NCBI RefSeq assembly: GCF_053078305.1
Contig: NZ_CP166879.1
Length of the DNA stretch: 64,000 bases
Strand: one strand, 5' to 3'
Within the stretch, counting starts at the first letter, position 1, and each line of letters starts with the position of its first letter. A model generated the notes under the pieces. It saw only the letters and a program-made list of their open reading frames with translations. It was not told the origin of the DNA and did no database searches. Shown here piece by piece: positions 23,185 to 56,331 of the stretch. The translations under genes were made by a program, and so were the position numbers.

Positions 23185-23215
23185 AAATCGAATCGATCGT
23201 TTTTGTCGATCGATT
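23185..23215 (+). promoter_or_regulatory. GATC cluster upstream of com (putative Dam/OxyR-controlled mom promoter region)
   Basis: GATC at 23195 and 23208 within a short dyad; further GATC at 23038, 23073, 23084. Confidence 0.45.
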
Positions 23216-23258
23216 GCATGAGAAAGGCATCAACAACAAAGCAGGAGGTTATGCGGCC

Positions 23259-23459
23259 ATGTATCGAAACATACGGTGCCGACACTGCAATAAGCTACTG
23301 GCACGGGCCAGTTTCAGTTATCTGGAAGTAAAATGTCCGCGCTGTAAAACCCTCAATCAAATCACATCTCCGAGCGCCACAGAGCACCCCACATACACAA
23401 GGAAATCCTGTCGTGGGGAACAGAAAGCAAGTCACATCCCGTATCATCAGCACGCCTGA
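23259..23459 (+). CDS. com: Com zinc-finger translational activator of mom
   Basis: Motif [29 protein letters not shown]...EHPT aligns with the Mu Com C4 zinc finger as recalled; SD GCAGGAGG 10 nt upstream of the ATG at 23259. Confidence 0.75.
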
Positions 23460-24150
23460 ACTTATTCGCTATAACGACAATATCGTTGGTTATGGTTCCC
23501 GTGAGTTGCGGGTTGAGACAATAAGTTGCTGGCTGGCCAGACTGGTTATCGTCAATAAACATTACAGCCACCGTTTCGTAAATAACTCCTACCTTCATCT
23601 GGGCATATTTTCAGAACGGGAACTTGTTGGCGTAATGCAATGGGGTTACGCCCTTAACCCAAACAGTGGTGCACGCGTCGTAACGGGTACGCAGAACCGA
23701 GAATATATGGAGCTGAACCGGCTATGGATGCATGACTGTATGCCGAGAAACTCCGAATCAAGGGCAATCAGTTACGCGCTCAAGCTAATCAGGCAGCTTT
23801 ATCCGCAGGTACAGTGGGTTCAGTCGTTTGCAGATGAGCGTTGTGGCTGTCTTGGTGTCGTGTATCAGGCAAGCAATTTTGATTATGTAGGCAGCCATGA
23901 AACAATATTCTATGAACTTGATGGCGAGTGGTATCACGAGATTTGCAGGAATGCCATTAAACGAGGCGGACAACGAGGTGAACATCTGAGGGCTAATATC
24001 GACAGAGCCAGTGTGCATAAGTTCCGACAGTTTCGTTACATCCGGTTTCTGAACAAGAGGGCCAGAAAACGCCTCAACACAAAGCTATTCAAAGTCCAGC
24101 CTTACCCAAAACCACAAACAGTTAAAACTGGTTTGAAAGAGAGTGAATGA
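23413..24150 (+). CDS. mom: Mom-like DNA modification protein
   Basis: 245-aa ORF overlapping the com 3' end, last gene before the prophage right end as in Mu; start codon uncertain. Confidence 0.65.
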
Positions 24151-24295
24151 GCGCTTAAAAACTCATTCTAAAACTCAAAAGAAAAGCGCCGATTTAGTAT
24201 CAAATAAGTTGCGTATCGGCGTTTTTCAGCGGTATCAAATGAAATGCAAATCGGTATCAAAAAAATCGCCGCGCTATATGCCGCTGACCACAGCA
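24150..24295. other. Mu-like prophage right end (transposase-binding repeats) and junction with lambdoid Z remnant
   Basis: Repeated CGGTATC / GCGTTTTTCAGCGG motifs resembling MuA end-binding sites; sequence ends ...ACCACA (terminal CA) just before lambda-like coding sequence resumes. Confidence 0.35.
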
Positions 24296-24391
24296 TTTAA
24301 ACAGAATATTGAACGTATCCGGCGTGAACGCCTGCCAGAAGAACTGGCATATGCGCTGAAACAACAACTGAGGATTGCGATAAAACGATGA
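24296..24391 (+). pseudogene. 3' fragment of lambda Z-like tail gene, disrupted by the Mu-like insertion
   Basis: Short reading frame ending in ATGA overlap with the U start, as at a lambda Z/U junction; no N-terminal part present. Confidence 0.4.
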
Positions 24392-24783
24392 AACATACTG
24401 ATATCCGTGCAGCCGTACTGGATGCACTGGAGAAGCATGACACCGGGGCGACGCTGTTTGATGGTCGCCCCGCTGTTTTTGAGGAGGCGGATTTTCCGGC
24501 GGTCGCGGTTTATCTGACGGATGCAGAGTATACCGGTGAAGAGCTGGATGCTGATACCTGGCGGGCCACACTGCATATTGAGGTGTTTTTACCGGCACAG
24601 GTACCGGATTCAGAGCTTGATCAGTGGATGGAAAGCCGGATTTACCCGGCGATGGCGGCGATCCCTGCACTGGCAGGCATGATTACCACGATGGTTACGC
24701 AGGGCTATGAGTATCGTCGTGATGACGATATGGCATTGTGGAGCTCTGCAGATCTGACTTATTCCATTACATACGAGATGTGA
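24388..24783 (+). CDS. U: Minor tail protein U
   Basis: 131 aa, near-identical to lambda gpU as recalled ([22 protein letters not shown]...). Confidence 0.9.
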
Positions 24784-24790
24784 GGATGAT

Positions 24791-25540
24791 ATGGCAACAC
24801 CAAATCCCCTGGCGCCGGTAAAAGGTTCCGGCACCACGCTCTGGGTTTACACCGGTAAGGGCGATGCTTATGCAAACCCGCTGTCAGATGATGAGTGGAC
24901 GCGTCTGGCAAAAATAAAGGATCTGACCCCCGGCGAGATGACGGCGGAATCCTACGACGATAACTATCTGGATGATGAGGATGCTGACTGGGTATCCACC
25001 GGGCAGGGGCAGAAATCTGCCGGTGACACCAGTTTTACGCTGGCCTGGAAGCCCGGCGAGAAAGGGCAGCGTGATTTGATTGCCTGGTTTGACAGCAGTG
25101 AGACCCGGGCCTACAAAATCCGCTTCCCGAACGGTACGGTGGATGTGTTCCGTGGCTGGGTGAGCGCCATTGGTAAAGCGGTGACTGCCAAAGAAGTGAT
25201 TACCCGTACGGTAAAAATCACCAATATTGGTCGTCCGTCGCTGGCGGAGGATCGGGGAGAAATCACACCGGTCACCGGTATTACCGTGACGCCACTAACG
25301 GGGAATGTGGCAAAAGGTCAGAGCACCACCCTGACTGTGGCCGTTCAGCCGGAAGGCGCAACGGATAAAACATTCCGCGCAACGTCGGCAAATCAGAATT
25401 TCGCCACCATTACCGTGAAAGGGAACACGATCACCGTGAAAGGTGTTGCGGCAGGTAAAGCGCAGATCCCTGTTGTCACCGGCAACGGTGAGTTTGCGGC
25501 GGTGGCGGAGATCACCGTTACGGATGGCGCTGCGGGCTGA
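24791..25540 (+). CDS. V: Major tail protein V (with C-terminal Ig-like domain)
   Basis: 249 aa, lambda V-like N-terminus. Confidence 0.9.
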
Positions 25541-25556: not shown

Positions 25557-25979
25557 ATGTTCCTGAAAACAGAACAATTTGAATATAACGGTGTGTCCGT
25601 CACGCTGTCGGAACTGTCCGCGCTGCAGCGGTTTGATTATATAAAGTTTGTTTCAGACGCAGCACAACAGGAGACAACGGAGCATGATGCCGTGCACATT
25701 AACCAGCGATATCTGGAAACGGCATCCCTGCTTGTGGCGATGTCGCTATGGCATTCCCATTCCCTCAAAGGCACTCTGGCCTCTCCGGAGACAGAGATGC
25801 AGCAGATCCGCCGTGAAGTGATGCTGGGATGGCCTGCTGATGCACTGAATCAGGCAACGAACCGGGTGCTTTATCTTTCAGGTATGCTGGATAACCGGCA
25901 CGATGCCGATCCTGAACAAACCGGGAAAGCAGAAGCGACTGAGCCGGTAACATCAAAAAAGCATTCGAAGGCGAGCTGA
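25557..25979 (+). CDS. G: Tail assembly chaperone G
   Basis: ATG at 25557 with SD GAGGGGAGGAG; about 140 aa. Confidence 0.85.
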   Translation: MFLKTEQFEYNGVSVTLSELSALQRFDYIKFVSDAAQQETTEHDAVHINQRYLETASLLVAMSLWHSHSLKGTLASPETEMQQIRREVMLGWPADALNQATNRVLYLSGMLDNRHDADPEQTGKAEATEPVTSKKHSKAS

Positions 25980-26419
25980 ACTTTGTCCTGAAACTGGCGC
26001 GTGAGATGGGGAGAGCCGACTGGCGCGCCATGCTTGCCGGGATGACATCCACCGAATATGCCGACTGGCGACGTTTTTACTGCACGCATTATTTTCAGGA
26101 TACCCAACTGGACGCTCATTTTTCCGGGCTGATGTACGCCGTACTCAGCCTGTTTTTTGGCGATCCGGATATGCATCCGGCGGATTTCAGTCTGCTTGCT
26201 CCAGCGTGTGAGGAAGAGCAGACGGAGATGCCGGACGAGGAAGAAATGCTGATGCAGAAAGCGACAGGAGTTGCCGGAGGCGTCCGGTTCGGAGGGGACG
26301 GGGGACGCGATATTTCACCTTCTGCGGATGTGGTGGATGTCAGCGAGGATGATGTTGCATTAATGATGGCTTCAGCGGGGATTTCCGGAGGTGTGAGATA
26401 TGTCCCAGCCAGCGGGTGA
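25557..26419 (+). CDS. T: Tail assembly chaperone G-T fusion via programmed -1 frameshift at 25955-25961
   Basis: T ORF is in the -1 frame; zero-frame heptamer A-AAA-AAG near the end of G. Confidence 0.7.
25955..25961 (+). other. Slippery heptamer A_AAA_AAG (-1 programmed frameshift site)
   Basis: Zero-frame codons TCA-AAA-AAG; the -1 frame continues uninterrupted into the T ORF. Confidence 0.7.
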
Positions 26420-29012
26420 TCTGGTTATTGATTTGAGTCTGGATGCGGCCCGGTTTGATGAACAGATGGCCCGGGTACGCCGTCATTTTTCCAGTCTGGA
26501 GGCGGATGCCAGAAAAACCGCCAGTACTGTTGAACAGGGGCTGAGCCGACAGGCGCTGGCTGCACAAAAAGCCGGGATATCAGTCGGACAGTATAAGGCT
26601 GCCATGCGCACACTGCCCGCACAGTTCACGGATATTGTCACTCAGCTTGCCGGTGGTCAGAATCCCTTCCTTATCATGCTGCAGCAGGGGGGGCAGATCA
26701 GCGATTCATTCGGTGGACCGCTCAGCCTGCTTACCCTGCTGAAGGAGGAACTTCTCGGGATCAGGGATGCCTCTGAATCATCAGAGGATTCGCTGTCAGA
26801 TACGGCAAATGCTCTGGCTGAAAATGCCCGGAATGCCGGTGAACTGGGACGATTTATGTCGGTGGCCCGTGTGGCGGCAGGTGGCGGGGTTGCCGTACTG
26901 GCCGCGCTTGCTGCTGCCGCCTGGCAGGCAGAGCAGGCTGACCGGGCCTTATTGCGTTCACTGACCCTGACCGGAGGGGCGGCTGCCACCACAACGGCCG
27001 AATTGTGGAAAATGGCCGGGGTGATCAGCGATGAAGCCGGTGGTGGTATCAGACAGGCGGCAGAAAATCTGGCCCGTCTGGCAGAAAGCGGGAAATATAC
27101 CGCCGGGCAGCTACGGATCATGGGGGAAACCTCTCAGAGATGGCTGCAGACGGTGGGGGACGATGCCGGGAAGGTGGAAAAAGCCTTTGAAGGGATTGCA
27201 GCAGATCCGGTGAAGGCGCTGGCCTCCCTGAATCAGCAGTATAACTTCCTGAGCGTTTCCCAGTTACGCCATATTGATGAGCTTGAGCGCACGAAAGGTA
27301 AACAGGCTGCGGTGACGGAGGCGATGTCCCTGTTTGCGGATGTTATGAATGCACGTCTGGAGCAACTTGATAAAGCGGCCACGCCGGTGGAAAAAATCTG
27401 GGACGATGTTAAAACCTGGACTTCTGACGCATGGGCATGGATAGGTGATCATACACTGGGGGCACTCAGTCTGATCACTGACGTGGTGGCAGGAACCGTT
27501 GAACAGGTGAAGCTGCTGCTTGTGCAGGGGGATCTGGCGCTGGCTGAATTTATTCAGTCAGCCTGGGAAACGACAAAGAATGTGCCCGGCGTTGGTGCGT
27601 TGTTTGGTGAACTGGCAGAAGAGAACCGCGTATTTATTGAGAAAACAAAACGCGATGAACTGGCGCTGAGAAAATCCATTGCGGAACGGGATGCGCGTAT
27701 ACGCCAGGGGGAAATGGGGTACATCAACCGTTCGCGTGCAACAGGCGTCAGCAAAGGTCCGGGGCAGCAGGAAGCCGTCAGCCGTCTGGCTGAAGAGCTG
27801 ACAGGTAAAAAGCATACATCACCGAAAACGCGCTCTGCCGGGGAGAGGGAAGAGGAGCAGGCAAGAGAGGCTCTGCTTGCCCTTGAAGCTGAACTCAGGA
27901 CGCTGGAAAAACACAGCGGTGCGAATGAGAAAATCAGCCGGCAACGCCGTGATTTATGGAAGGCGGAAAGTCAGTATGCGGTCCTGAAAGAGGCTGCCAC
28001 GAAACGACAGTTATCCGGGCAGGAAAAATCCCTGCTGGCCCATGAGAAAGAGACGCTGGAGTACAAACGCCAGCTGGCTGAGCTGGGCGACAAGGTTGAA
28101 TACCAGAAACGCCTGAATGAGCTGGCACAGCAGGCGGCACGGTTTGAAGAGCAGCAGAGCGCGAAGCAGGCCGCCATCAGCGCAAAAGCCCGTGGTCTCA
28201 CTGACCGTCAGGCGCAGCGGGAGTCTGAAGCGCAGCGTCTTCGTGACGTGTATGGCGATAATCCGCAGGCGCTGGCACAGGTCACCGGGGCACTGAAACA
28301 GACATGGGCGGATGAAGACATGCTGCGCGGTGACTGGCTGGCCGGGCTGAAGTCCGGCTGGGGCGAGTGGGCAGAAAGTGCGACGGACAGTTTTTCGCAG
28401 GTTAAAAGTGCTGCCACGCAGACCTTTGACGGTATTGCGCAGAATATGGCGGCGATGCTGACCGGTGCAGAGGCAGACTGGCGGGGATTCACCCGTTCGG
28501 TGCTGTCCATGATGACAGAAATCCTGCTTAAACAGGCCATGGTGGGAATTGTCGGGCGTATCGGCAGTGCCATTGGTGGTGCTTTCGGTGGTGGTGCATC
28601 TGCTTCCTCGGGGACGGCCATTGAGGCTGCGGCGGCGAACTTCCATTTCGCGACCGGAGGATTTACGGGGACGGGCGGCAAATATGAGCCTGCGGGGATA
28701 GTTCACCGCGGGGAGTTTGTTTTCACGAAAGAGGCAACCAGCCGGATAGGTGTGGGGAATCTTTACCGTCTGATGCGCGGGTATGCGGAAGGTGGTTATG
28801 TGGGTGCTGCCGGAAGTCCGGCGCAGATGCGGCGGGCGGAAGGTATTAATTTTAATCAGAACAATCACGTGGTGATTCAGAACGACGGTATCAACGGACA
28901 GGCGGGGCCGCAGCTGATGAAGGCGGTGTATGACATGGCCCGTAAGGGGGCGCAGGATGAACTCCGGCTGCAGTTACGTGATGGCGGTATGTTATCAGGG
29001 AGCGGGCGATGA
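26400..29012 (+). CDS. H: Tail tape measure protein H
   Basis: 870 aa; N- and C-terminal regions closely resemble lambda H. Confidence 0.9.
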   Translation: MSQPAGDLVIDLSLDAARFDEQMARVRRHFSSLEADARKTASTVEQGLSRQALAAQKAGISVGQYKAAMRTLPAQFTDIVTQLAGGQNPFLIMLQQGGQISDSFGGPLSLLTLLKEELLGIRDASESSEDSLSDTANALAENARNAGELGRFMSVARVAAGGGVAVLAALAAAAWQAEQADRALLRSLTLTGGAAATTTAELWKMAGVISDEAGGGIRQAAENLARLAESGKYTAGQLRIMGETSQRWLQTVGDDAGKVEKAFEGIAADPVKALASLNQQYNFLSVSQLRHIDELERTKGKQAAVTEAMSLFADVMNARLEQLDKAATPVEKIWDDVKTWTSDAWAWIGDHTLGALSLITDVVAGTVEQVKLLLVQGDLALAEFIQSAWETTKNVPGVGALFGELAEENRVFIEKTKRDELALRKSIAERDARIRQGEMGYINRSRATGVSKGPGQQEAVSRLAEELTGKKHTSPKTRSAGEREEEQAREALLALEAELRTLEKHSGANEKISRQRRDLWKAESQYAVLKEAATKRQLSGQEKSLLAHEKETLEYKRQLAELGDKVEYQKRLNELAQQAARFEEQQSAKQAAISAKARGLTDRQAQRESEAQRLRDVYGDNPQALAQVTGALKQTWADEDMLRGDWLAGLKSGWGEWAESATDSFSQVKSAATQTFDGIAQNMAAMLTGAEADWRGFTRSVLSMMTEILLKQAMVGIVGRIGSAIGGAFGGGASASSGTAIEAAAANFHFATGGFTGTGGKYEPAGIVHRGEFVFTKEATSRIGVGNLYRLMRGYAEGGYVGAAGSPAQMRRAEGINFNQNNHVVIQNDGINGQAGPQLMKAVYDMARKGAQDELRLQLRDGGMLSGSGR

Positions 29013-38317: not shown

Positions 38318-39601
38318 ATGGATTTCCAGTTATATTCGCTCGGCGCAGCGTTAGTGTTTCATGAAATATTTTTTCCTGAATCATCAACGGCAATGGCGTT
38401 AATTTTGGCAATGGGAACCTACGGTGCAGGTTATGTGGCGCGTATTGTCGGAGCATTTATTTTCGGCAAAATGGGCGACAGAATAGGGCGTAAAAAAGTG
38501 CTCTTTATTACCATCACCATGATGGGGATCTGTACCACCTTAATTGGTGTGTTACCGACCTATGCACAGATTGGTGTTTTTGCCCCCATCTTGCTGGTGA
38601 CGCTGCGTATTATTCAGGGGTTGGGTGCAGGTGCGGAAATTTCCGGTGCCGGTACGATGCTGGCGGAATATGCGCCAAAAGGTAAGCGCGGAATTATCTC
38701 CTCATTTGTAGCTATGGGAACTAACTGCGGAACCTTGAGCGCAACGGCAATCTGGGCCTTTATGTTCTTCATTCTCAGTAAAGAGGAACTGCTGGCGTGG
38801 GGATGGCGTATACCGTTCCTGGCGAGCGTTGTCGTGATGGTCTTTGCTATCTGGTTGCGTATGAATCTGAAAGAAAGCCCGGTCTTTGAGAAGGTTAACG
38901 ACAGCAACCAACCGACAGCAAAACCTGCACCTGCTGGTAGCATGTTCCAGAGCAAATCCTTCTGGCTGGCAACAGGGCTGCGTTTTGGTCAGGCAGGTAA
39001 CTCCGGGTTAATTCAGACTTTCCTTGCAGGCTATTTAGTACAGACGTTATTGTTTAACAAAGCAATTCCAACAGATGCATTGATGATCAGTTCGATTCTC
39101 GGCTTTATGACCATTCCGTTCCTTGGTTGGTTATCCGATAAAATTGGTCGCCGGATCCCGTATATTATTATGAATACCTCTGCGATTGTGCTGGCATGGC
39201 CAATGCTTTCTATCATCGTAGATAAAAGCTATGCCCCGAGCACCATTATGGTTGCACTGATTGTGATTCATAACTGTGCGGTGCTGGGATTATTTGCTCT
39301 GGAAAACATTACCATGGCAGAAATGTTCGGCTGTAAAAACCGCTTTACCCGGATGGCTATTTCTAAAGAAATTGGTGGTCTTATCGCTTCCGGTTTTGGT
39401 CCTATCCTTGCGGGTATTTTCTGCACCATGACGGAATCCTGGTATCCGATCGCCATTATGATCATGGCATATTCAGTGATTGGTTTAATCTCTGCGCTGA
39501 AAATGCCAGAAGTGAAAGACCGTGATTTAAGTGCGCTGGAAGACGCTGCGGAGGATCAACCGCGTGTTGTAAGAGCTGCGCAACCTTCCAGAAGTCTGTA
39601 A
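38318..39601 (+). pseudogene. ydfJ: MFS (MHS-family) transporter, 5'-truncated at the prophage junction
   Basis: 427-aa ORF begins inside the first transmembrane region with no N-terminal motif; prophage tail genes lie directly upstream. Confidence 0.7.
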
Positions 39602-55215: not shown

Positions 55216-56331
55216 TTAATGACGATCAGGAATGTCTGGCGTTTTGGAGGTTGCGGGTATAGGTGGTCTGACAGGGGAGCGAGGCCTGTTTTTCACCAGG
55301 TCTTCATGAGTAACTTTTGGCGGTGTTTCATTTTTTACAAACAGTTTGAGGGTCTTGCGCGCCATATGTTTGATAATTTTATCATCACTTAATGATGCTG
55401 GCATCAACACGTCATTCAAATCACTTTCATTGGGATTCATAAATTGGTGATAGTGTAACAACATATTGGCGAAAAATAAAAACAAGTCCTGAAAATGAGG
55501 AGATTCTTGTTCTGCTAAAAGGGATAAAAAACAGATGCAGACTTCGGGTAGTACATGTTTGTTAGAACCTAATGAATCCATCAGGCTTTGCAATAAATCC
55601 TCTTTTAATTCGCTGTCCGTTATGTCGAGAATGGCGGTGATCAAGTTAGGATCTTTATTGACGAACCATCTGTGAACCTCAGAGTTATTCCATAATCGGG
55701 GGAGTATGACAAAATTACCGCGAGAGATAAAATTCAGGACAAGCAAATCAAACTGGCGTAAGTAATCTGCAGCGGTATGGTGATCCGGAGGCAGGGGTTC
55801 AATATGTGGTGTATGCGCTCTTTTGATGGGAACGCCAGGGTTGATCATTGGGAATTGTTCAATAAAATCATTCAGAAACAGAAAGAGCACACGCTCGACG
55901 CCGGTCTGAAATACGCGCCCCATAGTAACAGGCTTTGGGTTGGGAGCGCAAAAAATATTAATTTCTCCATCATGGCGGAAATTATCTAAATAAATAGGGC
56001 TTAAATTTATTACTACCTGAAATTCAATATTTTCTTTGTGTCTTCCATTCCTGGCGGGATAAGTGAGTTTAAACTGAACCTTTTCATTGTATAGCGTGTC
56101 GTTACCCCGAAAAGAAGTCCTCTGAATATATGATAAGTTGTCAAGATTATTAAATATCTTTTTTGTGGCTGAGTTGATGTTTAAAGACGTGCGCCACTCT
56201 TCATTACATATTATTGTACTAAGTGCATCAATAAAATCCTTTAAAACTTCTTTTACCTGCTGTGCAATATTACGAACGGGAAAATCATCAGGAAGAGATA
56301 TGTAATTGCTGATGCTTACTGGCGTAACCAT
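55216..56331 (-). CDS. yneK: Uncharacterized protein
   Basis: 371 aa; position between ydeA and yneJ. Confidence 0.6.
   Translation of the reverse strand: MVTPVSISNYISLPDDFPVRNIAQQVKEVLKDFIDALSTIICNEEWRTSLNINSATKKIFNNLDNLSYIQRTSFRGNDTLYNEKVQFKLTYPARNGRHKENIEFQVVINLSPIYLDNFRHDGEINIFCAPNPKPVTMGRVFQTGVERVLFLFLNDFIEQFPMINPGVPIKRAHTPHIEPLPPDHHTAADYLRQFDLLVLNFISRGNFVILPRLWNNSEVHRWFVNKDPNLITAILDITDSELKEDLLQSLMDSLGSNKHVLPEVCICFLSLLAEQESPHFQDLFLFFANMLLHYHQFMNPNESDLNDVLMPASLSDDKIIKHMARKTLKLFVKNETPPKVTHEDLVKNRPRSPVRPPIPATSKTPDIPDRH

What the first reader, a model, noticed from the sequence alone, without database searches (positions are those of the whole stretch)
25940..26010. Lambdoid G-T -1 frameshift uses A_AAA_AAG, not the nearby GGGAAAG
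The lambda-type motif GGGAAAG occurs at 25923 but is out of phase (zero-frame codons GGG-AAA). The correctly phased heptamer is A-AAA-AAG at 25955-25961, and the -1 frame then runs into the T ORF.
Basis: seen in the sequence. Interest (0 to 1): 0.3.

Follow-up and report, generated by a model that had tools for sequence, protein, structure and literature searches.

The report
Lambda-type G-T tail frameshift site
This is the ordinary programmed -1 ribosomal frameshift that lambda-like phages use to make the tail-assembly fusion protein GT; in this E. coli prophage the slippery site is A_AAA_AAG instead of lambda's G_GGA_AAG, at the same codon position.

Summary
G runs 25557-25979 (140 aa). GGGAAAG at 25923-25929 is read GGG-AAA-G, which is out of phase. 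A -1 shift there would also hit a TGA at 25940-25942. A_AAA_AAG at 25955-25961 is the only in-phase X_XXY_YYZ heptamer in the whole of G. It lies in the 34-nt stretch where the -1 frame is open, and that frame then runs 152 codons to 26419.

In a GT fusion alignment the heptamer falls on the same codons as lambda's G_GGA_AAG (PVSAGK|VFDGEL in lambda, PVTSKK|AFEGEL here), 15 nt before the G stop in both. Across 203 related copies the site is only GGGAAAG or AAAAAAG, with no intermediates. Variation just downstream is conservative in the -1 frame and radical in the 0 frame.

No Shine-Dalgarno-like or hairpin stimulator was found, so it looks like a bare heptamer. Public records call G and T as separate genes without a slippage join.

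This is a textbook mechanism with a canonical E. coli slippery sequence, so interest is low. This copy sits in a lambdoid prophage split by a Mu-like prophage inside gene Z, so it may not be expressed here.

The parts
24388..24783 (+). Tail terminator gene U. It is the first intact lambdoid tail gene after the Mu-like prophage junction.
   Evidence: Pfam Phage_tail_U, E = 1.4e-61.
24791..25540 (+). Major tail tube gene V, with a C-terminal Ig-like domain.
   Evidence: Pfam Phage_TTP_12, E = 5e-67, and Big_2, E = 2e-16.
25557..25979 (+). Gene G, the 0-frame tail assembly chaperone (140 aa).
   Evidence: ORF and translation. Pfam Phage_TAC_2, E = 4e-35. The GT fusion is 58% identical to lambda GT.
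25923..25929 (+). Decoy GGGAAAG. It is out of phase (read GGG AAA G) and not conserved in close relatives.
   Evidence: Phase. It aligns to lambda 'EQTEDAG', not to the lambda slip site. It is mutated to ..GAAAAC.. or ..TAAAG.. in about 25 of about 90 copies of this lineage.
25940..25942 (+). TGA in the -1 frame. It marks the upstream limit of the T reading frame and blocks any GT product from a shift at the decoy.
   Evidence: Stop-codon list for that frame.
25955..25961 (+). Slippery heptamer A_AAA_AAG, the inferred site of the -1 ribosomal frameshift.
   Evidence: It is in phase and the only in-phase heptamer in G. It is orthologous to lambda G_GGA_AAG. It is invariant in 89 copies. The site is only GGG or AAA followed by AAAG in 203 copies.
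25961..25979 (+). Dual-coded stretch. The 0 frame reads ..HSKAS-stop and the -1 frame reads AFEGEL...
   Evidence: Across 37 unique contexts, variation is conservative in the -1 frame ([VA]F[DE]GE) and radical in the 0 frame ([SHCYRP]S[TKMS][AV]S).
25961..26419 (+). T segment, read in the -1 frame after the slip (152 codons, stop TGA 26417-26419). The GT fusion is 25557-25961 joined to 25961-26419, with G 25961 read twice, giving 287 aa.
   Evidence: Frame and stops. Pfam Phage_tail_T, E = 2e-11. Alignment with lambda GT.
26006..26008 (+). Internal ATG that public annotation uses as the start of a separate 'T' gene. It is probably not a real start.
   Evidence: RefSeq and GenBank records start T here. 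The preceding 20 nt, TCCTGAAACTGGCGCGTGAG, have no spaced Shine-Dalgarno sequence. Homology to lambda T extends 15 codons upstream to the heptamer.
26400..29012 (+). Tape measure gene H. It overlaps the end of the T frame by 20 nt.
   Evidence: Pfam TMP_2, E = 1e-45, and Tape_meas_lam_C, E = 8e-21.

Best explanation
Window 25955-25961 is the programmed -1 ribosomal frameshift site of a lambda-type G/GT tail assembly chaperone gene pair.

Most ribosomes read G in frame and stop at 25977-25979, giving the 140-aa chaperone gpG. A small fraction slips while TC[A AAA AAG] is being decoded. With the two lysine codons AAA and AAG in the P and A sites, both tRNA-Lys(UUU) molecules re-pair one base back onto AAA AAA. 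The ribosome then reads GCA TTC GAA GGC GAG CTG ... in the -1 frame to 26417-26419. The product is a 287-aa fusion, gpGT, with junction ...PVTSKK|AFEGEL....

By analogy with lambda, gpG and the G part of gpGT coat the tape measure protein H, and the T part recruits the tail tube protein V.

Shown here:
- the geometry of frames and stops;
- homology of both frames to lambda G and T;
- exact positional orthology with the lambda slip site;
- conservation of the heptamer;
- selection on the -1 frame starting at the heptamer;
- absence of recognisable stimulators.

Inferred:
- that slippage actually happens;
- its efficiency, expected to be a few per cent;
- the assembly role of the products.
For: - Phase, the unique in-phase heptamer and the open -1 frame 25943-26419.
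- Gene order U-V-G-T-H, with Pfam Phage_TAC_2 and Phage_tail_T for the two frames.
- In the lambda GT and window GT alignment the two heptamers fall on the same codons, and both end 15 nt before the G stop.
- In 80 IMG/VR relatives every intact copy has exactly one in-phase heptamer in the overlap, at the same place.
- In a second sample anchored on the downstream motif, 99 copies have GGGAAAG and 20 have AAAAAAG.
- Over 203 copies AAAG is invariant and the first three bases are only GGG or AAA. Upstream flanks vary at nearly every column. Downstream changes are conservative in the -1 frame only.
- The A run is 6 in all 89 copies of this lineage.
- VT1-Sakai carries the same in-phase heptamer.
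- Literature: A_AAA_AAG, G_GGA_AAG and C_CCA_AAG are the most shift-prone heptamers in E. coli (PMC4066793; PMC5009743). An unrelated HK97-like tail chaperone cluster with conserved A_AAA_AAG is counted among true cases (PMC4066793, Table S4), and 6-7% frameshifting was measured for an HK97-like chaperone cluster (PMC3711429).
- The lambda G-T mechanism and the roughly 30:1 product ratio are described in PMC5009743.
Against: - There is no direct evidence of a GT product for this allele.
- The exact 287-aa fusion is absent from a collection of about 15 billion proteins, where G and an ATG-started T appear only as separate proteins.
- No stimulatory element was found. In the reporter of PMC4066793 a bare V_VVA_AAG heptamer gives only about 0.3%, and up to about 3.7% with a favourable 3' context.
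- In this genome the lambdoid tail operon is cut off from its upstream part by a Mu-like prophage that ends at 24278 inside gene Z. This particular copy may therefore be transcriptionally silent or useless.
Confidence: 0.9

Rival explanations
1. T is an independent gene translated from ATG 26006, as RefSeq and GenBank annotate it. The heptamer would then be incidental.
For: PGAP and submitter annotations call a 137-aa 'phage tail assembly protein T' from this ATG. That protein is present in 343 contigs of the protein collection.
Against: - There is no spaced Shine-Dalgarno sequence in the 20 nt upstream of the ATG.
- Homology to lambda T continues 15 codons upstream of the ATG, right to the heptamer.
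- The 15-nt dual-coded stretch evolves under -1 frame constraint.
- The Met is an internal conserved residue (LAREMGR) in lambda GT.
- In lambda, T sequence is made only as the GT fusion (Levin et al. 1993, as cited in PMC5009743; the detail is my own knowledge).
Confidence: 0.04
2. The frame change is made by RNA polymerase slipping on the A6 run (transcriptional slippage), not by the ribosome.
For: Homopolymeric A runs can cause transcriptional realignment. Runs of more than 7 A are cited as slippage sites (PMC3711429).
Against: - The run is only 6 A in all 89 copies, below the lengths cited for efficient slippage.
- The orthologous site in most relatives is GGGAAAG, with only 3 A. That site cannot work this way and is established as ribosomal in lambda.
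- The conserved feature is the X_XXA_AAG phase, not the run length.
Confidence: 0.03
3. The frameshift happens at the lambda-like GGGAAAG at 25923-25929.
For: The string is identical to lambda's slippery sequence.
Against: - It is read GGG AAA G, so it is out of phase.
- The -1 frame has a TGA at 25940-25942 downstream of it, so no GT fusion can result.
- It aligns to a non-homologous part of lambda G.
- It is mutated in about a quarter of close relatives.
Confidence: 0.005
4. This is not exclusive with the best explanation. In this particular genome the site is an intact but idle relic, because the lambdoid prophage is broken.
For: - Mu-like prophage homology ends at 24278 and lambdoid homology begins at 24279, inside gene Z. 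Only the last 113 nt of Z remain next to U.
- com/mom-type genes lie directly upstream (Pfam Mom, E = 3e-77).
- At least 24 kb of Mu-like prophage separates U-V-G-T-H from any lambdoid late promoter.
- Decayed copies of G-T exist elsewhere (L041, L047).
Against: U, V, G, T, H and the downstream tail genes are all intact ORFs. G-T is 98-99% identical to that of complete Stx1a-converting phage genomes. Read-through transcription from the Mu-like late region cannot be excluded.
Confidence: 0.4

Closest known systems
Bacteriophage lambda G / GT programmed -1 frameshift (G_GGA_AAG)
   Same: - The gene order V-G-T-H is the same.
- G and T are homologous; the GT fusion is 58% identical.
- The slip site is at the same codon position, 15 nt before the G stop.
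- The A-site codon is the same (AAG, shifting to AAA, tRNA-Lys).
- No stimulatory structure is evident.
   Different: - The first three bases are AAA instead of GGG. The P-site tRNA is therefore tRNA-Lys on AAA rather than tRNA-Gly on GGA.
- The junction residues are S-K-K rather than A-G-K.
- The base 3' of the heptamer is C rather than T.
- The efficiency of this allele has not been measured.
E. coli dnaX A_AAA_AAG frameshift
   Same: The heptamer is identical, and the same tRNA-Lys re-pairing logic applies (PMC5009743).
   Different: - dnaX has an upstream Shine-Dalgarno-like stimulator and a downstream hairpin (PMC3711429), and its frameshifting efficiency was reported as 50%.
- Neither element is found here.
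- In dnaX the shifted product is shorter, whereas here it is longer.
HK97-like tail assembly chaperone of E. coli O157 prophage Sp9 (ECs1801), cluster A_AAA_AAG_25 of Sharma et al. 2014
   Same: It has the same role and the same heptamer, in a tail chaperone gene upstream of the tape measure gene. The authors count it as a true case. Frameshifting of 6-7% was measured for an HK97-like chaperone cluster (PMC3711429).
   Different: - The protein family is unrelated (blastp E = 1.2 against the window's G).
- Its heptamer directly abuts the stop codon (AGA AAA AAG TAG).

Membership tests
Lambda-type G/GT tail assembly chaperone with -1 PRF | Two overlapping reading frames lie between the major tail tube gene and the tape measure gene. 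| tested here: met
   V is 24791-25540, G is 25557-25979, the T frame is 25943-26419 and H is 26400-29012.
Lambda-type G/GT tail assembly chaperone with -1 PRF | The upstream frame is homologous to gpG and the downstream -1 frame is homologous to T. | tested here: met
   Pfam Phage_TAC_2, E = 4e-35, and Phage_tail_T, E = 2e-11. The fusion is 58% identical to lambda GT.
Lambda-type G/GT tail assembly chaperone with -1 PRF | An in-phase X_XXY_YYZ slippery heptamer lies within the overlap. | tested here: met
   A_AAA_AAG at 25955-25961 is the only in-phase heptamer in G. It lies in the 34-nt stretch where both frames are open.
Lambda-type G/GT tail assembly chaperone with -1 PRF | The slip site is conserved in relatives and orthologous to the proven lambda site. 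| tested here: met
   It falls on the same codons as lambda G_GGA_AAG. Only GGGAAAG or AAAAAAG occurs at that place in 203 copies.
Lambda-type G/GT tail assembly chaperone with -1 PRF | The downstream frame lacks its own translation start. | tested here: inconclusive
   An ATG exists at 26006, but it has no spaced Shine-Dalgarno sequence. Coding constraint extends upstream of it. Initiation itself cannot be tested from sequence.
Lambda-type G/GT tail assembly chaperone with -1 PRF | A GT fusion protein is made at a low fixed ratio to G and is needed for tail assembly. | not testable with these tools
   This needs a reporter assay, proteomics or genetics.
dnaX-type stimulated A_AAA_AAG frameshift | A Shine-Dalgarno-like element lies about 10 nt upstream of the heptamer. 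| tested here: not met
   The upstream 20 nt, GCGACTGAGCCGGTAACATC, contain none of the SD-like motifs searched.
dnaX-type stimulated A_AAA_AAG frameshift | A stable hairpin starts 5-9 nt downstream of the heptamer. | tested here: not met
   The first 30-60 nt downstream fold less stably than shuffled sequence (z = +0.4 to +2.3). The 131-nt fold has z = -0.84. The only solid stem (GGCGCG...CGCGCC) starts about 34 nt downstream.
Transcriptional slippage site | A homopolymer run long enough for RNA polymerase realignment, more than 7 A according to PMC3711429. | tested here: not met
   The run is 6 A in all 89 copies. Orthologous sites in most relatives have only 3 A.

The most novel reading that the evidence does not exclude
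The GGG to AAA swap is not neutral. With A_AAA_AAG both slipping tRNAs are the single E. coli tRNA-Lys (mnm5s2UUU). The G:GT ratio of this Stx-phage-type tail module would then be set differently from lambda's and would be more sensitive to the host's 2-thiouridine modification state. That pathway is already known to alter lambda G:GT and phage yield (Maynard et al. 2012, cited in PMC7618472). Only two heptamers occur at this site, with no intermediates in 203 copies. That would reflect two separate fitness peaks reached by recombination rather than by stepwise mutation.
Probability: 0.2. Interest if true: 0.3.

Novelty: already known. Interest (0 to 1): 0.1.

Why it matters
The main value is for annotation. 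RefSeq, GenBank and a 15-billion-protein collection all list G and an ATG-started 'T' as two genes for this lineage, and none of the records inspected has a ribosomal-slippage join. The real product is most likely a 287-aa GT fusion joined at 25961.

The case also shows that string matching for lambda's GGGAAAG would pick the wrong site. Biologically it adds nothing new in kind. The G-T frameshift is textbook, and A_AAA_AAG is the canonical E. coli slippery heptamer, already documented in another phage tail chaperone family.

Tried and rejected
1. I first took cluster 'A_AAA_AAG_25, ECs1801, tail assembly chaperone [true]' of Sharma et al. 2014 to be this same gene. Fetching ECs1801 from O157 Sakai showed a 124-aa HK97-like chaperone unrelated to lambda G (blastp E = 1.2). 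It is a functional analogue, not prior description of this allele.

2. I looked for stimulators. The RNA fold of 25930-26060 is not better than shuffles (z = -0.84). Windows of 30-60 nt downstream are less structured than shuffles, and there is no SD-like motif upstream. The alifold consensus over 40 unique sequences gives only a distant stem within conserved coding sequence.

3. I looked for A-run length variants that might hint at DNA or RNA slippage. There are none in 89 copies.

4. One census match with CACAAAG (L113) looked like an interesting non-canonical site. It is a chance match to the search pattern, not a G-T locus.

5. The Xu et al. 2013 paper on lambda G:GT balance is not held in the library. 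Full-text searches for AAAAAAG with phage, tail and frameshift found no paper describing this allele in lambda-G homologues or Stx phages.

6. An exact look-up of the fused protein found nothing.

Full report
**Observation.**
- Gene G starts at ATG 25557 and ends at TGA 25977-25979 (140 aa), so its codons begin at positions divisible by three.
- GGGAAAG occupies 25923-25929 and is read ACC GGG AAA GCA. That is the wrong phase for a tandem X_XXY_YYZ slip.
- AAAAAAG occupies 25955-25961 and is read TC[A AAA AAG], the right phase.
- The -1 frame has stop codons at 25913 and 25940 and then none until 26417.
- The TGA at 25940-25942 lies between the decoy and the true site.

**Is it more than chance?**
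- As a bare string AAAAAAG is unremarkable: 18 copies in the window against 11.6 expected.
- In context it is not. It is the only in-phase XXXYYYZ heptamer in the 140 codons of G.
- In-phase heptamers occur at 0.32% of codon positions in the long ORFs of the window, so about 0.04 are expected in the 12-codon overlap.
- Of the 18 copies, only this one is in phase near the end of a long ORF and followed by a long open -1 frame of 152 codons.

**What it is.**
- The surrounding genes are a lambda-type tail module. Pfam assigns U (24388-24783), the tail tube protein V with a Big_2 domain (24791-25540), G as Phage_TAC_2, the -1 frame as Phage_tail_T, and the tape measure H (26400-29012).
- I built the conceptual GT fusions for lambda (J02459, G 9711-10133, T 10115-10549) and for the window and aligned them. 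They are 58% identical over the full length.
- The two heptamers fall on the same codons. Lambda reads ...AEPVSAGK|VFDGELSFALKLAREMGR and the window reads ...TEPVTSKK|AFEGELNFVLKLAREMGR. In both, the heptamer ends 15 nt before the G stop codon.
- The decoy GGGAAAG aligns with lambda 'EQTEDAG', a non-homologous, variable part of G.

**Relatives.**
- The G-T segment is 98.4-98.5% identical to Stx1a-converting phages and 93.8% identical to VT1-Sakai. It is 98.6-99.3% identical to prophages in many E. coli genomes.
- VT1-Sakai carries the same in-phase heptamer.
- In 80 IMG/VR loci found with the GT alignment, every intact copy has exactly one in-phase heptamer in the overlap, at the same place. 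It is either AAAAAAG or GGGAAAG.
- That sample is biased towards the query. I therefore scanned IMG/VR with the conserved downstream motif AAAGNNTTCGANGGNGAGCTGA. Of the first 120 matches, 99 have GGGAAAG and 20 have AAAAAAG. One is a chance match outside any G-T locus.
- Pooling 203 copies gives 37 unique contexts. AAAG is invariant. The first three bases are only GGG or AAA, with no intermediates. Nearly every column of the 30 nt upstream varies.
- Some GGGAAAG copies share the downstream sequence typical of the AAAAAAG lineage. The heptamer allele is therefore not strictly linked to its flank.
- The decoy GGGAAAG is altered in about 25 of about 90 copies of the AAAAAAG lineage, as expected for a meaningless string.
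- The A run is six in all 89 copies of that lineage.

**Which frame is under selection.**
- In the 15 nt that are read in both frames after the heptamer, the observed variants give [V/A] F [D/E] G E in the -1 frame. In the 0 frame they give [S/H/C/Y/R/P] S [T/K/M/S] [A/V] S.
- Purifying selection therefore acts on the -1 frame from the heptamer onward, and the last five residues of G are nearly free to vary.
- This argues directly against the public annotation, which starts a separate T gene at ATG 26006. That ATG has no spaced Shine-Dalgarno sequence. It encodes an internal conserved Met of lambda GT.

**Mechanism.**
- The best-supported reading is a tandem -1 slip with AAA in the P site and AAG in the A site. 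Both codons are decoded by the single E. coli tRNA-Lys, which pairs better with AAA than with AAG (PMC5009743).
- A_AAA_AAG, G_GGA_AAG and C_CCA_AAG are the three most shift-prone heptamers in E. coli (PMC4066793).
- I found no upstream SD-like element and no suitably placed hairpin. The 131-nt fold has z = -0.84. The first 30-60 nt downstream are less structured than shuffles. The only solid stem begins about 34 nt downstream, in conserved coding sequence.
- The site thus looks like lambda's bare heptamer rather than the stimulated dnaX cassette.
- In the reporter of PMC4066793, bare V_VVA_AAG heptamers give about 0.3%, rising to about 3.7% with a favourable 3' context.
- An unrelated HK97-like tail chaperone cluster gave 6-7% frameshifting (PMC3711429). 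Lambda's G:GT ratio is about 30:1 (PMC5009743). A few per cent is the reasonable expectation here, but it is unmeasured.
- Compared with lambda, the P-site tRNA changes from tRNA-Gly to tRNA-Lys, and the base after the heptamer from T to C.

**Rivals.**
- Independent initiation of T is unlikely for the reasons above.
- Transcriptional slippage is unlikely because the run is only six A, and most orthologues have GGGAAAG.
- Slippage at the decoy is excluded by the stop at 25940.
- A non-exclusive caveat concerns this particular copy. Homology to a Mu-like prophage ends at 24278 and lambdoid homology begins at 24279, inside gene Z. Only the last 113 nt of Z precede U.
- The lambdoid prophage is therefore split, and its tail genes lie behind at least 24 kb of Mu-like prophage. 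The G-T signal is intact here, but it may not be used in this strain.

**Comparison with what is known, and novelty.**
- The locus meets every sequence-testable criterion of the lambda G/GT family (see membership test). It does not meet the stimulator criteria of the dnaX type.
- The frameshift between tail chaperone genes is widely conserved in long-tailed phages (Xu et al. 2004, as cited in PMC5009743).
- A_AAA_AAG is already recorded for another E. coli prophage tail chaperone, ECs1801 (PMC4066793 Table S4). I checked that gene and found it to be an unrelated HK97-like protein.
- I found no paper that describes the A_AAA_AAG allele specifically in lambda-G homologues.
- The exact fusion protein is absent from a 15-billion-protein collection, where G and T appear separately.
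- This is therefore an under-annotated but entirely predictable instance of a known mechanism. I rate it 'already known' in kind, with low interest.

**Verdict.** It is ordinary biology, useful mainly as an annotation correction: GT = 25557-25961 joined to 25961-26419.

Noticed in passing
window 9317-9935 (slip region 9776-9784): This is the tail chaperone pair of the Mu-like prophage, upstream of its tape measure gene (9938-12013). ORF 9317-9811 is followed by an ORF at 9753-9935 that lies in the +1 (equivalently -2) frame, not the -1 frame. The overlap contains CGG GGG CGA, with a G5 run at 9777-9781. A -2 re-pairing of tRNA-Gly on GGG would give ...ADRG|GDQAQC.... From my own recollection, not checked against any paper here, Xu et al. 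2004 reported an unusual -2 frameshift for phage Mu, and this would match it.
   Followed up: partly
window 24143-24391 (junction at 24278/24279): Homology to a Mu-like prophage ends at 24278 (99% identical to the Mu-like prophage of E. coli O145:H28 12E115). The lambdoid sequence starts at 24279 inside gene Z, leaving only the last 113 nt of Z. In strain 12E115 the same Mu-like end abuts the lambdoid portal gene instead. The Mu-like element therefore appears to have inserted independently into a lambdoid prophage, splitting it.
   Followed up: partly
window 23214-24150: A com/mom-type pair lies at the right end of the Mu-like prophage. The 245-aa ORF at 23413-24150 matches Pfam Mom (E = 3e-77). 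The overlapping 81-aa ORF at 23214-23459 lies where the O145:H28 12E115 prophage has a Com family regulator gene overlapping mom; I did not compare its sequence.
   Followed up: partly
window 38318-39601: The lambdoid prophage ends next to a truncated ydfJ, annotated as missing its N-terminus in O157:H7 F3113. Core chromosome follows (ydfI, dcp, the mar operon, sad, glsB, uxaB) to the end of the window.
   Followed up: partly
window 56158-56164, minus strand: An in-phase A_AAA_AAG lies inside the 371-aa ORF 55216-56331, annotated yneK in relatives and a pseudogene with an internal stop in O157:H7 F3113. The -1 frame closes after 2 codons, so any slip would only truncate the protein. It is probably incidental.
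   Followed up: no
L047 (IMGVR_UViG_2869970738_000006) and L041 (IMGVR_UViG_2695420576_000005): These are decayed G-T copies. L047 has an internal deletion of about 30 nt that removes the heptamer and the G stop, giving a 207-aa out-of-frame ORF. L041 is a lambda-like G with an early stop at 124 aa upstream of an intact GGGAAAG.
   Followed up: partly
window 25993-26030: There is a direct repeat CTGGCGCG at 25993 and 26019, and a GGCGCG/CGCGCC stem about 34 nt downstream of the heptamer. This lies within the conserved coding sequence LAREMGRADWRA and is too far away to act as a classical frameshift stimulator.
   Followed up: partly
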